Source: Escherichia phage vB_EcoM_PTE-Eco05. Taken from it: a stretch of DNA of 64,000 nucleotides. Positions 37,333 through 64,000 of the stretch are shown one piece after another. Position 1 is the first letter of the stretch. Every line of letters starts with the position of its first letter. The DNA lies in the sequence record PQ306573.1. One strand, written 5' to 3'. A program made the translations under genes and the position numbers. The notes under the pieces were generated by a model. That model worked only from the letters and a program-made list of their open reading frames with translations, searched no databases and was not told the DNA's origin.

Positions 37333-37968
37333 ATGAAAACTACACCAATCACTATCGCTATTGACGCAATCGTAAAACAAGCTTCATCTCTTGCCACTAT
37401 GGCTAAAGTAATTAGTCAAAACCCTGCTCGGTATAATGCTATTCTTGAAACTCTTCGTCGCCCTGGACTGAGTAATTATGAAAGTCGTGTAATTATTACA
37501 GGTGTTGGTAAGAACGCTAATATCGCAACTAAAGCTTCCGAGACTTTTGCTTCACTAGGTATTCCTAGCATGTATTTGAACACTGGGCATTATTCTCATG
37601 GTGACGCAGGATTTATTGCACCTAATGATGTATTAGTTCACATCAGCCGTTCTGGTAAGACTGAAGAAATGATAGGTGTTGCTAAACATCTTCGTATGAT
37701 TCGTCCTCAGGTTAAACAGATTCTGTTACATTGTAACCCTGACATTCCACAAGAATACGAAGCTCTTTTTGATTATACGTTCTGTACTGGTATCGCGGTA
37801 GAAGTTGACGAGAACTCTTTAGCTCCGACAATGTCTACTACATTGTTGTTAGCGCTTATCGATACGTTCGCTATCAACCTTTCGTCTGAACGTGGATTTA
37901 CCTCTAATGATTTCCTTAAGTTCCATCCAGGCGGTGCACTAGGTGCCATGTTACGAGGCGAACAATGA
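37333..37968 (+). CDS. SIS-domain sugar-phosphate isomerase, KdsD/GutQ-like arabinose-5-phosphate isomerase
   Basis: ITGVGKNANIATKASETFASLGIPS...HGDAGFIAPNDVLVHISRSGKTEE...LAPTMSTTLLLALID...HPGGALG matches API SIS motifs; no CBS domains. Confidence 0.8.
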   Translation: MKTTPITIAIDAIVKQASSLATMAKVISQNPARYNAILETLRRPGLSNYESRVIITGVGKNANIATKASETFASLGIPSMYLNTGHYSHGDAGFIAPNDVLVHISRSGKTEEMIGVAKHLRMIRPQVKQILLHCNPDIPQEYEALFDYTFCTGIAVEVDENSLAPTMSTTLLLALIDTFAINLSSERGFTSNDFLKFHPGGALGAMLRGEQ

Positions 37969-38107
37969 AAGCAATATCAATAGGACTTTTACTATTGATG
38001 CTTGTCATGACTATCTACTGGAGCTTAACGGCTCCAGTAATGATTCCAACACTTGTAATTGGATGGATTATGATTGGACTACAAGCAAAGTATGAATGCT
38101 TTAACTA
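37965..38107 (+). CDS. small hydrophobic membrane peptide (47 aa)
   Basis: ATGA overlap with upstream stop; MKAISIGLLLLMLVMTIYW... Confidence 0.35.
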
Positions 38108-38149
38108 GAATAGTGTACAATACTCCTACTTACCAATGAGGACTTCAAC

Positions 38150-39835
38150 ATGAAAAAAGCTGTTATTCTTGGTGCTGGACTGGCAACTCGTTTGTATCCA
38201 ATAACGCATCATATTCCTAAGGTGCTTGTTAACTATAAACAAGACACTATTCTGAGCAATTTGTATACAATTTATTCTGACCTTGGCGCAGATGAAATTA
38301 TTGTAGTAGTTCATTCAAAATTTGCTGAAACTGTTCGAGCTTATTGTGAGCAAGAAGGGTTCAATGTGACTATTCGTACAGTTGATGAAGCGTATGGTTC
38401 TGCTTATGCTCTTGCTAAATTACACAAAGATTTAGACGGCCATAATGTAATTGTTAACTGGTGTGATATTATTCCCGATTTTGGTTCATGGTCTTGGAAT
38501 GTTAACGCAATCTATGTTAAGGGTGATGAATGTCGGTATAATTTCGATGGTGAAAATATCACTAATGTAGGTGAAACAGGCGGTAATGTTGTAGGAATTT
38601 ATCAGTTCAAAGACTGGGAATTCTATATGGGTTCTACCGATGAGGAAATTCATGAATACTGCAAAGGACGTGATTTCGTAGAATTCCTTTACGGCAGCAC
38701 ATTCAATAAATCAGAGCTTATGAATCTAATTGATTTAGGTGATATGCCTAAACTTGAAAAGGCCCATGAAGTTCGTGAACTGAACCGTAGTTTTAATGCA
38801 GTTGAAATTGGCGAAGAAACTGTAACTAAATTCGCATTAACCGAACAGGGTCGAGCTCTTCAGAAAGATGAGATTTCGTGGTATTTGAAAGTGAAATCAG
38901 ATTCAGTTCCTCAGTTAGTTTCTGTTAATGAAAATAACTTTGAAATGGAACGCATTAAAGGTAAGCCGGCATTTGAATATATTAAATCAAAATCAAGTCT
39001 TGCTCGTCCACAAATTATTGATGCAATTTTAGATGCACTGAAATTCAGCACAGACACTTATTTTGTAAGTCCTGAAACTGTTCGTCGTGATTTCACTAAA
39101 GAATTCTATACGAAAGTTATTGATCGTTGTGAAAGCATTCAACCATTGATTGATTCATTTGGTAAAATCACACATGTGAACTACACTAAGATTGGACGTC
39201 TGAAGCCAATGCTGAAACAAGCTTTAGAACACCTTATTCGTTATCATAACCGTTCTCAGGGACAGTACTCTGTTATTCATGGTGACCCGAACTTCAGTAA
39301 TACTATGATTACTGATAACGGCGAAGTCAAGTTTATCGACCCTCGTGGATATTTTGGCGAAACCAAGATTTACGGGCCAAAATTGTATGATGAAGCTAAA
39401 GTGCTTTACGCTGTTTCAGGTTATGATGAATTCAATGCTAATCCGACCTGGGGACAGTTTACTATTGATGAAACAACTTGTAATGTGACTATTAACATCA
39501 ATCCATTAGTTTACAAATATGGAAAGATGAGTTCGTTTAACGAGTATCATCATTTGGCAGTGGCAATTATCTGGATTGCATTAGGTGGTTATTTCAAGAA
39601 TAATCCACTTAAAGCGGTAGCCGCATATTATAAAGGTATGGAACTTCTGACTAAGCAATTACGTAATATGGGCCGTGTACTTCAAGACGGCTCTATTAGT
39701 TATGACGTAGCAGAACCTGTAACGGCTACTCTGATTACAAAAAATCCTGGTAAATGGGTACTAACTGATAAAGAAACTGGTGTTTCCTATCGTCCAATCG
39801 GTGGCGATATCACTCATCAATGGGAACGAATCTAA
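38150..39835 (+). CDS. bifunctional NDP-sugar pyrophosphorylase / sugar kinase fusion
   Basis: N-terminal AVILGAGLATRLYPITHHIPKVLV nucleotidyltransferase motif; C-terminal IHGDPNFSNTMI and FIDPRGYFG resemble APH/choline-kinase-fold motifs. Confidence 0.75.
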   Translation: MKKAVILGAGLATRLYPITHHIPKVLVNYKQDTILSNLYTIYSDLGADEIIVVVHSKFAETVRAYCEQEGFNVTIRTVDEAYGSAYALAKLHKDLDGHNVIVNWCDIIPDFGSWSWNVNAIYVKGDECRYNFDGENITNVGETGGNVVGIYQFKDWEFYMGSTDEEIHEYCKGRDFVEFLYGSTFNKSELMNLIDLGDMPKLEKAHEVRELNRSFNAVEIGEETVTKFALTEQGRALQKDEISWYLKVKSDSVPQLVSVNENNFEMERIKGKPAFEYIKSKSSLARPQIIDAILDALKFSTDTYFVSPETVRRDFTKEFYTKVIDRCESIQPLIDSFGKITHVNYTKIGRLKPMLKQALEHLIRYHNRSQGQYSVIHGDPNFSNTMITDNGEVKFIDPRGYFGETKIYGPKLYDEAKVLYAVSGYDEFNANPTWGQFTIDETTCNVTININPLVYKYGKMSSFNEYHHLAVAIIWIALGGYFKNNPLKAVAAYYKGMELLTKQLRNMGRVLQDGSISYDVAEPVTATLITKNPGKWVLTDKETGVSYRPIGGDITHQWERI

Positions 39836-40221
39836 TGCACCGTGTAGAAAACATGCTTAATCTTTGTTTTGATGTCGATGATTGTATAACAGAGTGGAAT
39901 AACAATCGTGATTACGTGAACTTCAAACCAGACGTCGAAATGGTGTCTGCCATTAATGCTCTGTATGATGCAGGGCATACCATAACGCTTTACACTGCTC
40001 GCGGTATGAAGTCAGTAGGTCCTGGTCGTATAGCAATTGACATTCTCCCAAGTCTGATTCAGAACTTGGCAAACATTGGCTTGAAGTACCATAATTTGCT
40101 AACACATAAACCAGTATATGATTGGATTATCGACGACAAAGCTATGCGTCCTGACGAATTCAAAGCTCTTATGAATAAAGGCGAATTCGAAACATTTAAA
40201 TCGTATAAACCGAATCTATAA
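39835..40221 (+). CDS. HAD-superfamily phosphatase-like protein
   Basis: FDVDDCIT near N-terminus (HAD motif I-like), later TARG and WIIDD. Confidence 0.55.
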   Translation: MHRVENMLNLCFDVDDCITEWNNNRDYVNFKPDVEMVSAINALYDAGHTITLYTARGMKSVGPGRIAIDILPSLIQNLANIGLKYHNLLTHKPVYDWIIDDKAMRPDEFKALMNKGEFETFKSYKPNL

Positions 40222-40269: not shown

Positions 40270-41439
40270 ATGCAAAAAATGAATACTTTTAAAATCGGAA
40301 CGAATTTTGATTTAGCTCTTCTTGATAAAATCGTAGAGCTCAATAAAACTTATCCTAATAGCTTGATAAATGAAGTATACGGCTCTACAAGAGAAATGGC
40401 TTTTGTAGCAGCCAGACCTGATTTTAGGCTTCCTGACGTTGACAAAAAGATGTTAGAAGATTACGTTAAACGTTGTAACGAATTAGGTATTTGCTTTAAC
40501 TATACACTCAACACGATAAATCCTGGTTCAAAAAGAGAACTAGTTGAGTGGAAGAAGAAAGCTATTCAGGATTATGTTCAGTATCTTTGGTCAATAGGCG
40601 TATGGCGTATTACTATCGCTAACCCTGTTGTTATGGAAATTGTTCGTGAAGTCAATAAAGACATTGAGATTGAAGTTTCAACAATTCTACATGTCGATGC
40701 TGTAACTCAAATCAAATACTTGCATGACCAGTATAATATCAAAAAGGTCTGCTGTGGAATTCATAAGAACCGTTCAGTTTCTTTCCTGAAGCGTGCAGCA
40801 GAGTTTTGCAATAAGAACAATATAATATTTGAAGTTCTTGTAAATGAGTTCTGTTCTAATGCTGGTAAAGGGTATACAACACATTGTAGCTATCGTGACT
40901 CTTGCTATATTTTCCATAGTACTGATGTTACAGCTGATGATGCTAAATCCTTAAACGGATATCCTATGCAGCACTGTATTAAAGCTCGTGATACAGACCC
41001 ATTTAACTGGTTGAGAACTCGTTTTGTTCGTCCTCAAGATTTGAAACTTTATAATGATATTGGTATCACTCAATTCAAAGTTTCAGGACGTACAGGTAGC
41101 ACAGACTACATTTTGAAAGTTCTTGAAGCATACGCTTCTGAAAAGTTTGAAGGTAATTTGTTAGAACTGTGGAAGCCTTTAGAGACTATTTTCACTCTTG
41201 AAAACGAAACTGAGTTTTCACATACAGTAAATATTGAAACCTCTTTGTTAGATGGCTTTTTAGAAAAAAGGTGGTTCAGACATCCAGATTTCGATTGTGC
41301 TAATGAAATCTGCGGGACGACGTGTACATATTGTGAAAGATATTATAAACGTCAATTATCTAAAAACGGGTTAGCAGAAAACTCTATATCTATTATTGAT
41401 ATAACTAACTCTGATGACGCTTTGAGGTACCCGGAATGA
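40270..41439 (+). CDS. Cys-rich hypothetical protein of the sugar/modification cluster
   Basis: 389 aa; NEFCSNAGKGYTTHCSYRDSCY and C-terminal CANEICGTTCTYCERYY. Confidence 0.55.
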   Translation: MQKMNTFKIGTNFDLALLDKIVELNKTYPNSLINEVYGSTREMAFVAARPDFRLPDVDKKMLEDYVKRCNELGICFNYTLNTINPGSKRELVEWKKKAIQDYVQYLWSIGVWRITIANPVVMEIVREVNKDIEIEVSTILHVDAVTQIKYLHDQYNIKKVCCGIHKNRSVSFLKRAAEFCNKNNIIFEVLVNEFCSNAGKGYTTHCSYRDSCYIFHSTDVTADDAKSLNGYPMQHCIKARDTDPFNWLRTRFVRPQDLKLYNDIGITQFKVSGRTGSTDYILKVLEAYASEKFEGNLLELWKPLETIFTLENETEFSHTVNIETSLLDGFLEKRWFRHPDFDCANEICGTTCTYCERYYKRQLSKNGLAENSISIIDITNSDDALRYPE

Positions 41440-41717: not shown

Positions 41718-42434
41718 ATGGGAAAACATAACACAATGAAATATATCAAAGCCGCAGATTTTCAAGCCGCATTTAAAGCAGTCAATCGTGAAATTTTAGA
41801 AAACCCGGAATTCGTAACTGATTCTCGTATTGGACGTTGTAATGAAATTGGGTCTATGACAGTAGTTGTTGACACTCCATCATCATTCAAAATGACCGAC
41901 CCACGTATTAACCGCATCTCTTATGAATATGCCGAAGACTTCTGGAAGTTTATGATTTCTGGTGGTACCAACGCAGAAGAAGCGTTTAAGGCATATCCTA
42001 ATGTCGCTAAATTTATTTCTAAACCAAAATCAGATGTTTTGCCGGCGAACTTCAACACTTTCTATGGTCCTCGCATTGCGGCCCAATTACCAGCTCTTCT
42101 AAAAGAACTTAAAGAGAAGCCTAACTCTCGAAGAGTTGTGTTCCAAATTCTAGAAAGTTCTGATCAGGCTTTGCTTGATTCAGACGAAACGCTTGAATAT
42201 CCATGTACTGACTCAGTGACTTATTATATCCGTGATGGTAAGCTTTATACCCACTGTCATATGCGTTCTCAGAACTGCGCTGTTGTTATGCAGTTGGATT
42301 TTTATCTCCAAGGAAAATTACTTCATTATATCGCTAACGAATGCGGTGTAGAAGTTGGTGATTATACTCATACCATGGTAAGTGCCCATGTGTTTGAACG
42401 TGATTTTGATTATGTTAAAGGATTCCTTGACTAA
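41718..42434 (+). CDS. thymidylate-synthase-fold pyrimidine hydroxymethylase (divergent dCMP hydroxymethylase-like)
   Basis: NSRRVVFQIL and YPCTDSVTYYIRDGKL...MRSQNCAVVMQLDFY align with TS/CH core motifs incl. catalytic Cys; same position as T4 gene 42. Confidence 0.65.
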   Translation: MGKHNTMKYIKAADFQAAFKAVNREILENPEFVTDSRIGRCNEIGSMTVVVDTPSSFKMTDPRINRISYEYAEDFWKFMISGGTNAEEAFKAYPNVAKFISKPKSDVLPANFNTFYGPRIAAQLPALLKELKEKPNSRRVVFQILESSDQALLDSDETLEYPCTDSVTYYIRDGKLYTHCHMRSQNCAVVMQLDFYLQGKLLHYIANECGVEVGDYTHTMVSAHVFERDFDYVKGFLD

Positions 42435-43333
42435 TGGCTATTTTCCGCGTACCAATCTTGAGTATGCGGTCTTATGAAACTGGACAGTATGCTATCCTTA
42501 AGGATGGCAACTTCCAACTTCATTTGCACCGTGCTAATCCGGGTGATGTGATTACATATCCACGTAATGCATCTGATATTAAAGAATGCGAACGTCTTTT
42601 TCCAGAATTTAAGTTTGTTCCATTATGGTATAAAGATAACGCGTATAACACTCGTAAATATTTCTGGTCTGAAAATGAATTTGTGGTTGATTCATTAATT
42701 GCTTATTATGATTGTGATTTTCTAATCACAGATATCACTGGATATGACGGCGCTTTTGATGTGGAATTCAATTTCAATATCACTGCAGACCCTAATAAAC
42801 CACGTTTTTATATTGACGAATTCTTAAAAACTGATATGTTGTCGGTTAATCGTTCACTTCAAACTACTGTGTTGAATGAACGTCAAAAAGAAGTGCTGGT
42901 TAACGCAGGTGCAGATGGTAATAAGATTATCGTAACGCAGAAAGTTATACGTCCTTCCATCATGCAGCGTCTTGTAGGTGATTTGGCTCCTATTTATCTA
43001 GATGGTATTTTTCATCCATTTCGAATTAGTGACCCGTGCTATCGTTTTGAACAAGTGGTTGAATGTGCAATTCAATTAGGCCAACCGCTTTATATAACCG
43101 ATCCAAATAATAGCTTCGACAGAAATAAGTATCCTGAAGAAGCGCTGATTCGAATTTTTAAACCAACTAAAACAGAGTACTATCAAATTCTTAAAGGGCG
43201 TCCTAAAATTCAATATTTCGAAAATCCTGAAGAAGTATTCCATCCAGGTCTTGGTGAGTTCATCTACTTTAATGCTTTAATTTCTTCGCCGTATAATATA
43301 CCTAAATATGAAGATGTCGTAATCGAGGAATAA
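42434..43333 (+). CDS. hypothetical protein (candidate DNA sugar transferase by context only)
   Basis: 299-aa ORF between hydroxymethylase and kinase; no motif recognised. Confidence 0.5.
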   Translation: MAIFRVPILSMRSYETGQYAILKDGNFQLHLHRANPGDVITYPRNASDIKECERLFPEFKFVPLWYKDNAYNTRKYFWSENEFVVDSLIAYYDCDFLITDITGYDGAFDVEFNFNITADPNKPRFYIDEFLKTDMLSVNRSLQTTVLNERQKEVLVNAGADGNKIIVTQKVIRPSIMQRLVGDLAPIYLDGIFHPFRISDPCYRFEQVVECAIQLGQPLYITDPNNSFDRNKYPEEALIRIFKPTKTEYYQILKGRPKIQYFENPEEVFHPGLGEFIYFNALISSPYNIPKYEDVVIEE

Positions 43334-61506: not shown

Positions 61507-63324
61507 ATGATTAAAAATGAAATTAAGGTATTGTCAGATGTAGAACATATTAAGAAACGTAGTGGTATGTATATTGGTTCTTCTGCTAAAGAAGCACATG
61601 AGCGTTTTTTGTTTGGTAAATATCAACAAGTTGAATATGTTCCTGGTCTGGTTAAATTAATCGATGAGATTATTGACAACTCGGTTGATGAAGCTATTCG
61701 TACATCATTTAAGTTTGCAAATAAAATTGATGTGCAAATTAAAAATAATCAAGTTTCGGTGGAAGATAACGGACGTGGTATTCCTCAAGGTTTAGTTACC
61801 GACCAAACAGGTGAACAAATTCCTGGGCCTGTAGCAGCCTGGACTATTCCAAAGGCTGGTGGTAACTTTGGTGATGATTCTGAACGCAAGACTGGTGGTA
61901 TGAACGGCGTCGGGAGTAGTTTAACTAATATCTTCTCTACGTTGTTTACAGGCATCACGTCAGATGGCGAAAATGAAATCACTGTTAACTGTTCAAACGG
62001 AATGGAAAACAAATCATGGTCTTCTAAGAAATCTAAAGGTAAAGGCACTAAAGTAATCTTCACTCCTGATTTCACTTCATTTGAAGAGCATAATTTATCT
62101 CAAATTTATTTAGATATTACTTTAGACCGACTTCAAACATTGGCAGTCGTTTATCCTGATATCAAGTTCACATTTAATGGTAAAAAGGTTGATGGTAATT
62201 TTAAACGATTTGCTAAACAATTTGGTGAAGATAACATCATTCAAGAAAATGATAAAGTCTCTATAGCATTCACAACATCACCCGATGGCTTCCGTCATTT
62301 AACTTATGTGAATAACATCCATACTAAAAATGGTGGTCATCATGTTGAATGTGTAATGGATGATATCTGCGAACATCTTTTACCGGGTATTAAAAAGAAA
62401 TATAAGGGTATTGAAGTCACTAAAGCTCGTGTTAAAGAATGCCTCACAATGTTGATGTTTATTAGAGACATGAGCAACATGCGTTTTGATTCTCAGACTA
62501 AAGAACGTTTAACGTCAACGTATGGTGATATTCGTAATCATATCCAATTAGATGCTAAAAAAATTGCTCAGGCACTTCTTAAAAACGAAGCCTTGATTAT
62601 GCCTATTGTTGAAGCAGCATTAGCTCGTAAATTGGCAGCAGAAAAGGCTGCAGAAACTAAAGCAGCTAAAAAGGCAACTAAAGCTAAGGTTCATAAGCAT
62701 ATTAAAGCTAACCAATGTGGTAAAGATGCAGATACGACATTGTTCTTAACAGAAGGTGATTCTGCAATTGGTTATCTCATTGATGTTCGTGACCGTGAAC
62801 TACACGGTGGATTCCCATTACGTGGTAAGGTGATGAATAGCTGGGGTATGTCATATGCTGATATGATGAAGAACAAAGAGCTCTTCGATATCTGTGCTAT
62901 CACAGGTCTTATTCTTGGTGAAAAGGCAGAGAATACGAACTATCGTAATATTGCAATTATGACCGATGCCGATCACGACGGTCTTGGAAGTATTTATCCT
63001 GCTTTGCTTGCTTTCTTTAGTAATTGGCCCGAATTGTTTGAACAAGGACGTATTCGCTTTGTTAAAACACCTGTAATTATTGCACAAATTGGCAAAACTC
63101 AAAAATGGTTTTATACTGTAGCTGAGTATGAAGAAGTTAAAGATACACTGCCTAAGCATAGTATTCGATACATCAAGGGATTAGGCTCCCTTGAAAAGTC
63201 AGAGTATCGTGAAATGATTCAGAACCCTGTGTACGACGTAGTTAAACTTCCTGAAAATTGGAAAGAACTCTTTGAAATGTTGTTGGGTGATGATTCAGAA
63301 CTTCGTAAAGAATGGATGTCCTAA
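61507..63324 (+). CDS. 39: DNA topoisomerase II large (ATPase) subunit, uninterrupted
   Basis: 605 aa colinear with T4 gp39 plus gp60 region. Confidence 0.93.
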   Translation: MIKNEIKVLSDVEHIKKRSGMYIGSSAKEAHERFLFGKYQQVEYVPGLVKLIDEIIDNSVDEAIRTSFKFANKIDVQIKNNQVSVEDNGRGIPQGLVTDQTGEQIPGPVAAWTIPKAGGNFGDDSERKTGGMNGVGSSLTNIFSTLFTGITSDGENEITVNCSNGMENKSWSSKKSKGKGTKVIFTPDFTSFEEHNLSQIYLDITLDRLQTLAVVYPDIKFTFNGKKVDGNFKRFAKQFGEDNIIQENDKVSIAFTTSPDGFRHLTYVNNIHTKNGGHHVECVMDDICEHLLPGIKKKYKGIEVTKARVKECLTMLMFIRDMSNMRFDSQTKERLTSTYGDIRNHIQLDAKKIAQALLKNEALIMPIVEAALARKLAAEKAAETKAAKKATKAKVHKHIKANQCGKDADTTLFLTEGDSAIGYLIDVRDRELHGGFPLRGKVMNSWGMSYADMMKNKELFDICAITGLILGEKAENTNYRNIAIMTDADHDGLGSIYPALLAFFSNWPELFEQGRIRFVKTPVIIAQIGKTQKWFYTVAEYEEVKDTLPKHSIRYIKGLGSLEKSEYREMIQNPVYDVVKLPENWKELFEMLLGDDSELRKEWMS

Positions 63325-63366: not shown

Positions 63367-64000
63367 ATGAAAGTTATGTTTATCCCATCTCGCGCAGTCC
63401 CATTTAACCCAGAACGTGTACAAGGTGGTCTTGAAGCAGTACATTTAAATGTGTTGAAATATTTAGTTTCTATCGGTGCCGATATTGATTATATTGGTTT
63501 TGATAATGACACGTTTGGTGACTGGAAAGTTAATCATCATCCTGTTGGTCATCTGACTAAATTCAGTCTAGGTATGAGTTATACTATGGCTCGTAAGATT
63601 GTTGAACTAGCCGGCATTAATGAGTACGATTTCGTTGTTACAATGGAACCGACCAAACTAACCGTTCAGGCAATTAAAGACGCAGGTCTCTCTAAAGTTC
63701 ATAAGAATTTTATGGCAACACCATTTGAACCAGTATCTCGTGGCATTGTTCAAATTTGGGACCAGACTATTCAAATTCGTAAGAACGGTGGTAAGAGTTA
63801 TGCTCCTACTAAAGCCTTCCGTGAATTTGAACGCAAATATTGTTATATGACTTCAGGTCTGACTGACAAAATTGATTATGATTATTGGCGAGCAAATCCG
63901 TTGTTTGAAACCGAAGATTATCCGGTTATTTGTTTGAATGAGAAACCTGAAGTTCTTCCGGCGACTGATCTGATTATTAGTGCACAACGTTATGACACTA
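63367..64000 (+). CDS. 3'-truncated ORF, possibly glycosyltransferase-like (tentative)
   Basis: open frame to window end; N-terminus MKVMFIPSRAVPFNPERVQGGLEAVHLNVLKYL loosely resembles GT-B N-terminal domain; not rIIA-like. Confidence 0.4.
   Translation, partial: MKVMFIPSRAVPFNPERVQGGLEAVHLNVLKYLVSIGADIDYIGFDNDTFGDWKVNHHPVGHLTKFSLGMSYTMARKIVELAGINEYDFVVTMEPTKLTVQAIKDAGLSKVHKNFMATPFEPVSRGIVQIWDQTIQIRKNGGKSYAPTKAFREFERKYCYMTSGLTDKIDYDYWRANPLFETEDYPVICLNEKPEVLPATDLIISAQRYDT

What the first reader, a model, noticed from the sequence alone, without database searches (positions are those of the whole stretch)
38150..39835. Single-polypeptide fusion of a sugar-1-phosphate nucleotidyltransferase with an APH/choline-kinase-fold kinase
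The N-terminal ~230 aa carry the GxGTRL-type motif of RmlA/GalU/MurU-like pyrophosphorylases (AVILGAGLATRLYP...PKVLV). The C-terminal ~300 aa carry HGDxxxxN and IDxxG kinase-like motifs (IHGDPNFSN, FIDPRGYFG). This resembles the AmgK/MurU anomeric-kinase plus uridylyltransferase salvage logic, fused into one protein, which would make an NDP-sugar directly from free sugar. I do not recall such an enzyme in T4.
Basis: partly seen in the sequence, partly recalled or inferred. Interest (0 to 1): 0.8.

Follow-up and report, generated by a model that had tools for sequence, protein, structure and literature searches.

The report
Phage UDP-arabinose kinase–nucleotidyltransferase fusion (AfhE)
This gene is a real two-domain enzyme (sugar-phosphate nucleotidyltransferase plus choline-kinase-fold kinase), but it is the already described RB69-type enzyme that helps make UDP-arabinose for decorating phage DNA, and it starts from arabinose-5-phosphate with a partner phosphatase, not from free sugar.

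Summary
ORF 38150..39835 (+, 561 aa) has an N-terminal RmlA/MurU/LicC/HddC-fold sugar-1-phosphate nucleotidyltransferase (aa 1-205) and a C-terminal choline-kinase/APH-fold small-molecule kinase (aa ~211-517). Every catalytic residue is invariant across homologues down to 28% identity.

The window is not T4. It is an RB69-like Mosigvirus. The protein is 556/561 identical to RB69 ORF53_52c (gp52:53), proposed in 2018 as a UDP-arabinose synthesis gene. In 2026 it was equated with HY126 AfhE, reported as a bifunctional D-arabinose-5-phosphate 1-kinase and UDP-D-arabinofuranose pyrophosphorylase.

The flanking genes support a four-step route, not free-sugar salvage: Ru5P -> Ara5P -> Ara-1,5-P2 -> Ara-1-P -> UDP-Araf. 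These genes are a SIS arabinose-5-phosphate isomerase and a HAD phosphatase that is 100% identical to PDB 9IQW. Natural HAD-SIS-NT-kinase single-chain fusions point the same way. This is the logic of the ADP/GDP-heptose pathways.

Verdict: real, correctly read at domain level, mechanistically only partly right, and already known. Interest is low. Side observations: an unexplained U32-family gene inside the cluster, and four-domain fusions in a giant-virus-like contig.

The parts
38150..39835 (+). Target gene: 561-aa bifunctional enzyme, orthologue of RB69 ORF53_52c (gp52:53) and analogue or orthologue of HY126 AfhE
   Evidence: ORF. After removing the erroneous extra C of the RB69 record, 556/561 aa are identical to RB69. 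Its 90%-identity cluster contains RB69ORF053c NP_861743.1.
38150..38764 (+). N-terminal domain (aa 1-205): minimal sugar-1-phosphate nucleotidyltransferase (predicted UDP-arabinofuranose pyrophosphorylase)
   Evidence: Pfam PF00483 E 8.8e-10, above its cut-off. PDB profile hits: HddC 2.3e-13, LicC 1.5e-11. Foldseek target TM: MurU 0.72, LicC 0.66, HddC 0.64. G10, R14, K24, D106, D195, D198 and K201 are invariant.
38780..39700 (+). Kinase domain (aa ~211-517): choline-kinase/APH (eukaryotic-like kinase) fold, predicted arabinose-5-phosphate 1-kinase
39701..39832 (+). C-terminal beta-rich tail (aa 518-561), function unassigned
   Evidence: Lower pLDDT of 71-86 with short strands. Weakly conserved T..P.KW.L.D.E...Y...W pattern in the consensus. 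No family hit.
37333..37968 (+). SIS-domain sugar-phosphate isomerase (RB69 gp55): predicted ribulose-5-P to arabinose-5-P isomerase, supplies the kinase substrate
   Evidence: Pfam SIS. Best NCBIfam matches are KpsF/GutQ 8.8e-32 and KdsD 3.8e-30, both below their curated cut-offs. PDB arabinose-5-phosphate isomerases 3etn 1e-24 and 2xhz 2e-18. 96.7% identical to RB69 gp55.
37965..38108 (+). 47-aa hydrophobic small ORF between the isomerase and the target, function unknown
   Evidence: Read from the sequence. ATGA overlap with the SIS stop codon. Annotated as hypothetical in Bas46.
39820..40221 (+). HAD-type phosphatase (RB69 gp51; AfhF-type): predicted to remove the 5-phosphate from arabinose-1,5-bisphosphate
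   Evidence: TIGR01689 capsule-biosynthesis phosphatase, E 4e-13, below the family cut-off. 100% identical over aa 5-133 to PDB 9IQW. Motifs FDVDD, LYTAR and IIDDK are visible in the sequence. Role as given in PMC13326640.
40270..41439 (+). U32-family protein (RB69 gp50), role in the cluster not explained
   Evidence: Pfam Peptidase_U32 E 7e-11. 99.5% identical to RB69 gp50. Never mentioned in PMC13326640.
41436..41675 (+). 79-aa ORF (RB69 gp49), unknown function
   Evidence: phrog_8601, unknown function. 92% identical to RB69 gp49.
41718..42434 (+). Thymidylate-synthase homologue: 5-hydroxy-dCMP synthase (RB69 gp48), makes the base that receives the arabinose
   Evidence: Pfam Thymidylat_synt. 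98.7% identical to RB69 gp48, whose activity was shown experimentally in PMC13326640. 233/238 identical to PDB 9IQC.
42434..43333 (+). Putative first DNA arabinosyltransferase (RB69 gp46:47), consumer of the NDP-arabinose
   Evidence: 99% identical to RB69 p047 and p046 read as one ORF. Assignment from PMC13326640. No Pfam or PDB sequence hit.
63367..64000 (+). Second putative arabinosyltransferase (RB69 ORF003c/gp3 homologue), cut off by the window end
   Evidence: tblastn: aa 1-211 of 366 at 98% identity, window 63367-63999. Candidate arabinosyltransferase in PMC6024577 and PMC13326640.

Best explanation
The gene encodes the Mosigvirus (RB69-type) version of the bifunctional enzyme that He et al. 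named AfhE in phage HY126. It works inside a four-step, phage-encoded route that diverts a pentose-phosphate-pathway intermediate into an activated arabinose donor for DNA decoration.

Steps:
1. The upstream SIS isomerase converts D-ribulose-5-phosphate to D-arabinose-5-phosphate.
2. The C-terminal choline-kinase-fold domain of the target uses ATP to phosphorylate the anomeric C1-OH. K227/E241 would hold the ATP phosphates, D379 of the HGD...N motif would be the catalytic base, and N384 and D397 would hold Mg2+. The product is arabinofuranose-1,5-bisphosphate.
3. The downstream HAD phosphatase removes the 5-phosphate.
4. The N-terminal nucleotidyltransferase domain (G10-x-x-x-R14, K24, D106, D195/D198) condenses arabinofuranose-1-phosphate with UTP to give UDP-D-arabinofuranose and pyrophosphate.

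The arabinosyltransferases at 42434-43333 and 63367-end then transfer arabinose onto 5-hydroxycytosine in phage DNA. The ThyA-like 5-hydroxy-dCMP synthase at 41718-42434 provides that base.

Shown here: the ORF, both folds, the invariant catalytic residues, the gene context, the Rosetta-stone fusions and near-identity to RB69. Taken from the literature: the substrate order and UDP as carrier. Inferred by me: the residue roles, and the idea that starting from the 5-phosphate locks the sugar in the furanose ring, because a blocked O5 cannot close a pyranose.
For: Fold and residues:
- Pfam NTP_transferase is above its cut-off.
- The AF2 model has pLDDT 92.
- The N-terminal domain matches MurU/LicC/HddC/RmlA structures.
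- Catalytic residues are invariant in 41 fusion homologues and in 17 multi-domain fusions.

Context:
- SIS isomerase with arabinose-5-phosphate isomerases as closest relatives.
- A HAD phosphatase whose start overlaps the target's stop codon.
- A ThyA-like 5-hydroxy-dCMP synthase and transferases in the same co-directional block.

Rosetta stone: proteins of 890-955 aa with the order HAD-SIS-NT-kinase.

Identity:
- 556/561 aa identical to corrected RB69 ORF53_52c.
- The HAD neighbour is 100% identical to PDB 9IQW, and the ThyA-like neighbour is 98% identical to PDB 9IQC. These are probably the HY126 deposits, so HY126 is probably a near-identical phage.

Literature:
- PMC6024577 showed that RB69 ORF53_52c is a single 561-aa protein that is expressed from a clone, and proposed it for UDP-arabinose synthesis.
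- The Thanatos orthologue TH1_060 (54% identical) is essential for phage propagation (PMC12838424).
Against: - The primary biochemical paper (He et al., Nat Chem Biol 2026) and Mahler et al. 2025 are not held. The substrate order is therefore second-hand.
- I could not obtain the HY126 AfhE sequence, so orthology to the assayed enzyme is indirect.
- The RB69 assignment in PMC13326640 is computational.
- The window protein itself gets only sub-threshold Pfam kinase hits (E 0.002-0.009). The kinase call rests on fold, motifs and homologues.
- Purified TH1_060 showed no pyrophosphorylase activity in vitro, but it was tested only with xylose-1-phosphate.
- Gene content alone cannot distinguish 'kinase then phosphatase' from 'phosphatase then kinase'.
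- NTP specificity cannot be read from the sequence.
Confidence: 0.85

Rival explanations
1. The kinase domain phosphorylates free D-arabinose (or another pentose) at C1 and the transferase domain activates it directly. This would be a self-sufficient salvage enzyme like AmgK+MurU, or like the fucokinase/GDP-fucose pyrophosphorylase FKP. A variant has the HAD phosphatase acting first (Ara5P to free arabinose) and the kinase then acting on the free sugar.
For: Several structural neighbours of the kinase domain act on free sugars at C1, namely NahK, maltokinase and MTR kinase. MurU is among the best matches for the N-terminal domain. Gene content alone is compatible with the phosphatase-first variant.
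Against: A pure salvage enzyme would not need an isomerase and a phosphatase. Yet both flank the gene, the phosphatase gene overlaps its stop codon, and both are fused to it in nature. PMC13326640 reports AfhE as an arabinose-5-phosphate kinase and AfhF as acting on the 1,5-bisphosphate. Free D-arabinose is not a normal abundant E. coli metabolite, and it would be mostly pyranose whereas the product is a furanoside (established chemistry; inference). Three basic residues in the kinase domain (R213, R326, R399) are invariant, as expected if a phosphate on the substrate is bound (inference).
Confidence: 0.07
2. Same architecture, different small molecule or nucleotide. For example, a LicA/LicC-like kinase plus cytidylyltransferase making a CDP-alcohol, or a GDP/CDP/ADP-pentose in place of UDP-arabinose.
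Against: Mosigvirus DNA carries arabinose (PMC6024577, PMC13390438). The cluster contains an arabinose-5-phosphate isomerase. HY126 AfhE is described as a UDP-D-arabinose pyrophosphorylase. The transferases' structural relatives use UDP-sugars. Identities to LicA and LicC are only 13-19%.
Confidence: 0.05
3. The database labels are right: it is a GlmU-type bifunctional enzyme, a GT-A glycosyltransferase, or a mannose-1-phosphate guanylyltransferase, as various deposited records annotate it.
For: Deposited annotations read 'bifunctional protein GlmU', 'nucleotidyltransferase', 'mannose-1-phosphate guanyltransferase' and 'capsular polysaccharide biosynthesis protein'. There are weak NCBIfam hits to GlmU models over aa 3-106 only.
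Against: The GlmU similarity is confined to the shared pyrophosphorylase fold and lies far below equivalog cut-offs (22 bits against 367). The C-terminal half is a kinase fold, not GlmU's left-handed beta-helix acetyltransferase. Thomas et al. scored it poorly against glucosyltransferase HMMs.
Confidence: 0.01

Closest known systems
[quoted passage not shown]
   Same: Same length (561 aa), same domain order and same gene neighbourhood. 99% identical to RB69 gp52:53. The neighbouring phosphatase is 100% identical to PDB 9IQW and the ThyA homologue is 98% identical to PDB 9IQC.
   Different: Nothing substantive was found. The window is simply another Mosigvirus isolate (closest is Shigella phage JK45, 99.2% DNA identity). 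Direct identity to the HY126 AfhE sequence could not be measured.
ADP-heptose pathway GmhA / HldE / GmhB, and GDP-heptose pathway GmhA / HddA / GmhB / HddC (established knowledge)
   Same: Identical pathway logic: SIS isomerase, then anomeric kinase giving a bisphosphate, then a HAD phosphatase removing the distal phosphate, then a nucleotidyltransferase. In HldE the kinase and transferase are also fused in one chain. HddC is the best PDB profile hit of the N-terminal domain (2.3e-13).
   Different: HldE's kinase is of the ribokinase/PfkB fold and its transferase is of the cytidylyltransferase fold. HddA is a GHMP kinase. Here the kinase has the choline-kinase/APH fold. The substrate is a pentose, not a heptose. 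This is analogy, not membership.
AmgK / MurU MurNAc recycling pair
   Same: An anomeric sugar kinase from the APH-like superfamily is followed by a minimal uridylyltransferase. MurU structures are among the best matches (4y7v, target TM 0.72).
   Different: AmgK and MurU are separate proteins. They act on a free amino sugar and need neither an isomerase nor a phosphatase. Here the substrate is a sugar 5-phosphate and a phosphatase step intervenes.
LicA choline kinase + LicC CTP:phosphocholine cytidylyltransferase (reported fused as LicCA in some bacteria; own knowledge)
   Different: The substrate is choline, the nucleotide is CTP, and identity is only 13-19%. There is no isomerase or phosphatase partner.
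FKP, the bifunctional L-fucokinase / GDP-L-fucose pyrophosphorylase of Bacteroides and plants (own knowledge)
   Same: A single chain with a pyrophosphorylase domain and an anomeric kinase domain. It is the true precedent for 'NDP-sugar from free sugar in one protein'.
   Different: FKP's kinase is of the GHMP fold and it acts on free fucose. The enzyme here starts from a phosphorylated pentose and depends on a separate phosphatase.
5-Methylthioribose kinase (MtnK)
   Different: The 5-substituent is methylthio, not phosphate. It is a stand-alone enzyme of methionine salvage.

Membership tests
AfhE-type bifunctional Ara5P kinase / UDP-Araf pyrophosphorylase (He et al. 2026, as described in PMC13326640) | One chain with an N-terminal nucleotidyltransferase domain and a C-terminal kinase domain | tested here: met
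AfhE-type bifunctional Ara5P kinase / UDP-Araf pyrophosphorylase | Encoded next to an arabinose-5-phosphate isomerase, a HAD phosphatase (AfhF), a ThyA-like 5-hydroxy-dCMP synthase and DNA arabinosyltransferases | tested here: met
AfhE-type bifunctional Ara5P kinase / UDP-Araf pyrophosphorylase | Sequence orthology to RB69 gp52:53, the protein that PMC13326640 equates with AfhE | tested here: met
   556/561 aa identical after removing the erroneous C. Same 90%-identity cluster as NP_861743.1.
AfhE-type bifunctional Ara5P kinase / UDP-Araf pyrophosphorylase | Sequence identity to the assayed HY126 AfhE itself | not testable with these tools
   The primary paper is not held and no AfhE chain is in the PDB. 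Indirect support: neighbouring proteins are 98-100% identical to PDB 9IQC and 9IQW.
AfhE-type bifunctional Ara5P kinase / UDP-Araf pyrophosphorylase | Ara5P 1-kinase and UTP:Ara-1-P uridylyltransferase activities | not testable with these tools
   Requires enzyme assays.
Sugar-1-phosphate nucleotidyltransferase (Pfam PF00483; RmlA/GalU/MurU/HddC/LicC fold) | Profile score above the curated cut-off | tested here: met
   39 bits against 21.2, aa 3-99. PDB profile hits reach 2.3e-13.
Sugar-1-phosphate nucleotidyltransferase | G-x-G-x-R-L signature loop with a downstream Lys, plus acidic metal and phosphate ligands | tested here: met
   G10, R14, L15, K24, D106, D195, D198 and K201 are invariant in 41 sequences. 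All but L15 (>=90%) are also invariant in the 17 multi-domain fusions.
Sugar-1-phosphate nucleotidyltransferase | Complete fold, not only the N-terminal motif | tested here: met
   220-250 aligned columns with whole MurU, LicC and HddC chains, target TM 0.64-0.72.
APH / choline-kinase family (Pfam PF01636; eukaryotic-like small-molecule kinases) | Profile score above the curated cut-off for this protein | tested here: not met
   There is no APH hit for the window protein, only sub-threshold Fructosamin_kin, EcKL and RIO1 hits. Homologues P0056 (25.6 bits) and P0094 (26.7 bits) do pass the 23.2-bit cut-off.
APH / choline-kinase family | Bilobal kinase fold closest to small-molecule kinases rather than protein kinases | tested here: met
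APH / choline-kinase family | Brenner motif H-x-D-x4-N, Mg-binding Asp (DFG-equivalent), ATP-binding Lys and its Glu partner | tested here: met
   H377-G-D379-PNFS-N384, D397, K227 and E241. All are invariant or at least 90% conserved.
AmgK/MurU-type free-sugar salvage | The kinase acts on an unphosphorylated sugar and the pathway needs no isomerase or phosphatase | tested here: inconclusive
   Context and fusions argue against it, as does the literature.
HldE (ADP-heptose) bifunctional kinase/adenylyltransferase | Ribokinase/PfkB-fold kinase plus cytidylyltransferase-fold transferase | tested here: not met
   The folds found are ELK kinase and RmlA-like transferase. Only the pathway logic is shared.
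GlmU | C-terminal left-handed beta-helix acetyltransferase domain | tested here: not met
   The C-terminal half has a kinase fold. GlmU equivalog scores are about 22 bits against cut-offs above 360.

The most novel reading that the evidence does not exclude
The most novel reading still open concerns the module, not the enzyme's basic function. The isomerase, kinase-transferase and phosphatase may work as a physical complex that channels the bisphosphate intermediate. The unassigned, conserved C-terminal tail (aa 518-561) could be the docking element. Natural HAD-SIS-NT-kinase single-chain fusions hint at this. The same module may also supply NDP-arabinofuranose (or a related pentofuranose) well beyond T4-like phages, including giant eukaryotic viruses, as the MutS-HNH / RNA-polymerase context of P0085 suggests. 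That would be a widespread D-arabinofuranose activation route independent of the mycobacterial decaprenyl-phosphate pathway. He et al. 2026 may already cover part of this; I could not read that paper.
Probability: 0.25. Interest if true: 0.4.

Novelty: already known. Interest (0 to 1): 0.15.

Why it matters
The enzyme matters biologically. It is the committed sugar-activation step for arabinosylated 5-hydroxycytosine, a DNA hypermodification that shapes how RB69-like phages evade or trigger bacterial defences. The Thanatos orthologue is essential for phage propagation. But this is established work: the gene was proposed in 2018 and reportedly characterised biochemically in 2026. The value of this check is to correct the reading. 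The phage is not T4, the enzyme is not a free-sugar salvage enzyme, and the pathway follows heptose-nucleotide logic. It also shows that many deposited annotations ('GlmU', 'hypothetical protein', 'phosphoheptose isomerase' for the phosphatase, 'dCMP hydroxymethylase' for the 5-hydroxy-dCMP synthase) are outdated.

Tried and rejected
- I tried to read the primary papers (He et al. 2026 Nat Chem Biol; Mahler et al. 2025 Cell Host Microbe). Neither is held. Searches for 'AfhE/HY126' and 'arabinofuranosylation' found only citing papers, and no supplements are held for the NAR paper.
- I looked for a solved structure of the target. None exists, and sequence searches reach only the N-terminal domain.
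- The context of the four-domain fusion P0092 was uninformative.
- The sigma-70 promoter and terminator scans gave no more sites than shuffled sequence, so I did not use them.
- I rejected the GlmU, glycosyltransferase and guanylyltransferase labels of deposited records.
- I considered membership in HldE and rejected it because the folds differ.
- A literature search linking U32 proteins to this cluster found nothing relevant.
- I did not use the remaining large-database searches because the answer did not depend on them.
Full report
**What is there.** The ORF is exactly as reported: window 38150..39835, + strand, 561 aa. A GAGGA ribosome-binding site lies about 7 nt upstream of the ATG. The TAA stop at 39833-39835 overlaps the start of the next gene, either the ATG at 39820 or an in-frame TAATG at 39835. 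The three quoted motifs are present at aa 4-27, 376-384 and 395-403.

**Which genome.** The window is not T4. The 6.1-kb stretch around the gene is 99.2% identical to Shigella phage JK45 and 98-99% identical to about 150 other Mosigvirus genomes of the RB69 group. Upstream lies the gp43 DNA polymerase.

Compared with the RB69 reference record, the gene has 40 mismatches in 1687 nt and one indel, an extra C in the RB69 record. That is the base that Thomas et al. 2018 showed to be a sequencing error. It had split one gene into ORF053c and ORF052c (PMC6024577). With that base removed, 556 of 561 residues are identical. The protein's 90%-identity cluster contains RB69ORF053c NP_861743.1.

**Domain 1, nucleotidyltransferase.**
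- Pfam NTP_transferase matches aa 3-99 above its curated cut-off (39 bits against 21.2).
- A profile of 41 homologues hits solved sugar-1-phosphate nucleotidyltransferases. The best is HddC of the GDP-heptose pathway at 2.3e-13, then LicC at 1.5e-11.
- The AlphaFold model built from that alignment is confident (pLDDT 92.2, pTM 0.89).
- Foldseek aligns 220-250 columns with complete MurU, LicC, HddC and RmlA chains, with target TM-scores of 0.72, 0.66 and 0.64 for the first three.
- The signature residues G10, R14, L15 and K24 and the acidic residues D106, D195 and D198 are invariant.
- The domain ends near aa 205, not 230.

**Domain 2, kinase.** At the sequence level the window protein gives only sub-threshold Pfam hits to Fructosamin_kin, EcKL and RIO1 (E 0.002-0.009), so I tested the fold directly.
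- I modelled aa 205-561 alone (pLDDT 91.4).
- More distant homologues pass the Pfam APH cut-off (P0056, P0094).
- The catalytic set is invariant or nearly so across homologues down to 28% identity: K227, E241, H377-G378-D379, N384 and D397.
- A stand-alone phage kinase family, phrog_21938, matches aa 211-517, which fixes the domain boundaries.
- Residues 518-561 form a less confident, beta-rich tail with no assignment.

**What the surroundings say.**
- The gene upstream (37333-37968) is a SIS protein. Its closest family and structural relatives are arabinose-5-phosphate isomerases: KpsF/GutQ 8.8e-32 and KdsD 3.8e-30, both below their curated family cut-offs, plus PDB 3etn 1e-24 and 2xhz 2e-18.
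- The gene downstream (39820-40221) is a small HAD-type phosphatase. It matches TIGR01689 at 4e-13, below that family's cut-off, and the HAD motifs are visible in the sequence.
- It is 100% identical over aa 5-133 to PDB entry 9IQW.
- Further downstream come a U32-family protein, a 79-aa ORF, a thymidylate-synthase homologue that is 233/238 identical to PDB 9IQC, and a 299-aa ORF equal to RB69 gp46:47.
- A homologue of RB69 ORF003c begins at 63367 and is cut by the window end.
- All cluster genes are 92-99.5% identical to their RB69 counterparts.

**Rosetta-stone evidence.** The homologue search found 315 relatives. Among them are proteins of 890-955 aa that carry HAD, SIS, nucleotidyltransferase and kinase in one chain, in that order. 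Both catalytic sets are intact in them. This ties the target functionally to both of its window neighbours. It argues that isomerase and phosphatase steps belong to the same pathway.

**What the literature says.**
- Thomas et al. 2018 found arabinose in RB69 DNA, showed that ORF53_52c is one 561-aa protein that is expressed from a clone, and proposed it and ORF055c as UDP-arabinose synthesis genes (PMC6024577).
- The Bas46 GenBank record annotates the orthologue as 'putative enzyme involved in UDP-arabinose biosynthesis'.
- A 2026 NAR paper shows that the modified base is arabinosylated 5-hydroxycytosine, not hydroxymethylcytosine, and that RB69 gp48 is a flavin-containing 5-hydroxy-dCMP synthase (PMC13326640).
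- The same paper models RB69 gp52:53 as the counterpart of HY126 AfhE. Citing He et al. [quoted passage not shown] It describes AfhF as the Mg2+-dependent phosphatase that converts the 1,5-bisphosphate to the 1-phosphate.
- I could not read He et al. or Mahler et al. 2025, so this part is second-hand.
- PDB entries 9IQW, 9IQC, 9IQU and 9IR2 are near-identical to the window's neighbouring proteins. They are most simply explained as the HY126 deposits. That would make HY126 a very close relative of this phage. This is an inference, because the tool shows no source organism.
- In Shewanella phage Thanatos, the 54%-identical orthologue TH1_060 is essential for propagation. It showed no activity on xylose-1-phosphate with any NTP (PMC12838424).

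**Mechanism.** The best-supported model is Ru5P -> Ara5P (SIS isomerase) -> arabinofuranose-1,5-bisphosphate (kinase domain, ATP) -> arabinofuranose-1-phosphate (HAD phosphatase) -> UDP-arabinofuranose (nucleotidyltransferase domain, UTP). The transferases then put arabinose onto 5-hydroxycytosine in DNA.
- Shown here: the folds, residues, context and fusions.
- From the literature: the substrate order and the carrier nucleotide.
- Inferred by me: the residue roles. I also infer that starting from the 5-phosphate keeps the pentose in the furanose form, because O5 is blocked. The invariant basic residues R213, R326 and R399 may bind that phosphate.

**Comparison with known systems.** The pathway logic is that of the ADP-heptose route (GmhA, HldE, GmhB) and the GDP-heptose route (GmhA, HddA, GmhB, HddC). 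Both run isomerase, anomeric kinase, distal-phosphate phosphatase, nucleotidyltransferase, and HldE also fuses kinase and transferase. The folds differ, though. HldE has a PfkB kinase and a cytidylyltransferase-fold transferase, so this is analogy and not membership.

It is wrong about starting from free sugar. LicA/LicC combines the same two folds on choline. FKP is the real precedent for a one-protein free-sugar route, but it uses a GHMP kinase. 5-Methylthioribose kinase is the closest chemical analogue of the kinase step.

**Verdict.** Novelty: already known. Interest is low (0.15) because a specialist in phage DNA modification would recognise the gene at once.

**Residual open points.**
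- The unassigned C-terminal tail.
- Possible channelling between the three enzymes.
- The unexplained U32 gene.
- The module's presence in what looks like a giant-virus contig.

Noticed in passing
window 40270-41439 (+): A U32-family protein (Pfam Peptidase_U32 E 7e-11; weak UbiU hit) sits in the middle of the arabinosyl-5-hydroxycytosine cluster. The 2026 NAR paper never mentions it (0 hits for U32 or gp50). It has cysteines at 195, 206 and 212 and a C-terminal C343-x4-C348-x3-C352-x2-C355 cluster. From my own knowledge, U32 members RlhA (5-hydroxycytidine in 23S rRNA), TrhP and UbiU/UbiV are O2-independent hydroxylases. It might therefore provide an anaerobic route to 5-hydroxy-dCMP alongside the O2-dependent flavin ThyA homologue. 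This is speculative.
   Followed up: partly
P0085 / locus L003 8001-10781 (also P0088, P0089, P0091, P0092, P0095, P0108): Single-chain HAD-SIS-nucleotidyltransferase-kinase proteins of 890-955 aa. P0085 is flanked by a MutS gene with an HNH domain, RNA polymerase Rpb2 and RpoN subunits and an autophagy-domain gene. That looks like a giant eukaryotic virus, not a bacterium. P0091 comes from a eukaryotic transcriptome. The whole NDP-pentofuranose module may exist outside phages.
   Followed up: partly
P0105, P0107, P0109, P0111, P0118 (777-790 aa): Another fusion variant: the nucleotidyltransferase-kinase module followed by a cupin/mannose-6-phosphate-isomerase-like C-terminal region. This suggests a different isomerase feeding the same kinase-transferase pair, possibly for another sugar.
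   Followed up: no
window 37965-38108 (+): A 47-aa strongly hydrophobic ORF (MKAISIGLLLLMLVMTIYWSLTAPVMIPTLVIGWIMIGLQAKYECFN) lies between the isomerase and the target. Its ATG overlaps the isomerase stop codon (ATGA). It is conserved in RB69 DNA (98%) and annotated as hypothetical in Bas46. It may be a small membrane protein inside a cytoplasmic sugar-nucleotide operon.
   Followed up: no
window 38803 and 42434-43333, compared with RB69 record NC_004928.1: The RB69 reference record still carries two frameshift errors in this cluster. They split the target into p053/p052 and the arabinosyltransferase into p047/p046. The window has both genes intact. Many deposited Mosigvirus records also mislabel the HAD phosphatase as 'phosphoheptose isomerase' and the 5-hydroxy-dCMP synthase as 'dCMP hydroxymethylase' or 'thymidylate synthase'.
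   Followed up: yes
window 39820-40221 and 41718-42434: PDB entries 9IQW ('Capsule biosynthesis protein') and 9IQC/9IR2/9IQU ('Thymidylate synthase') are 100% and 98% identical to these two window proteins. Their generic molecule names hide that they belong to the phage DNA-arabinosylation pathway.
   Followed up: partly
window 63367-64000 (+): The homologue of RB69 ORF003c, the second putative DNA arabinosyltransferase, starts just after the topoisomerase gp39 gene (61507-63321) and is truncated by the window end (211 of 366 aa present).
   Followed up: yes
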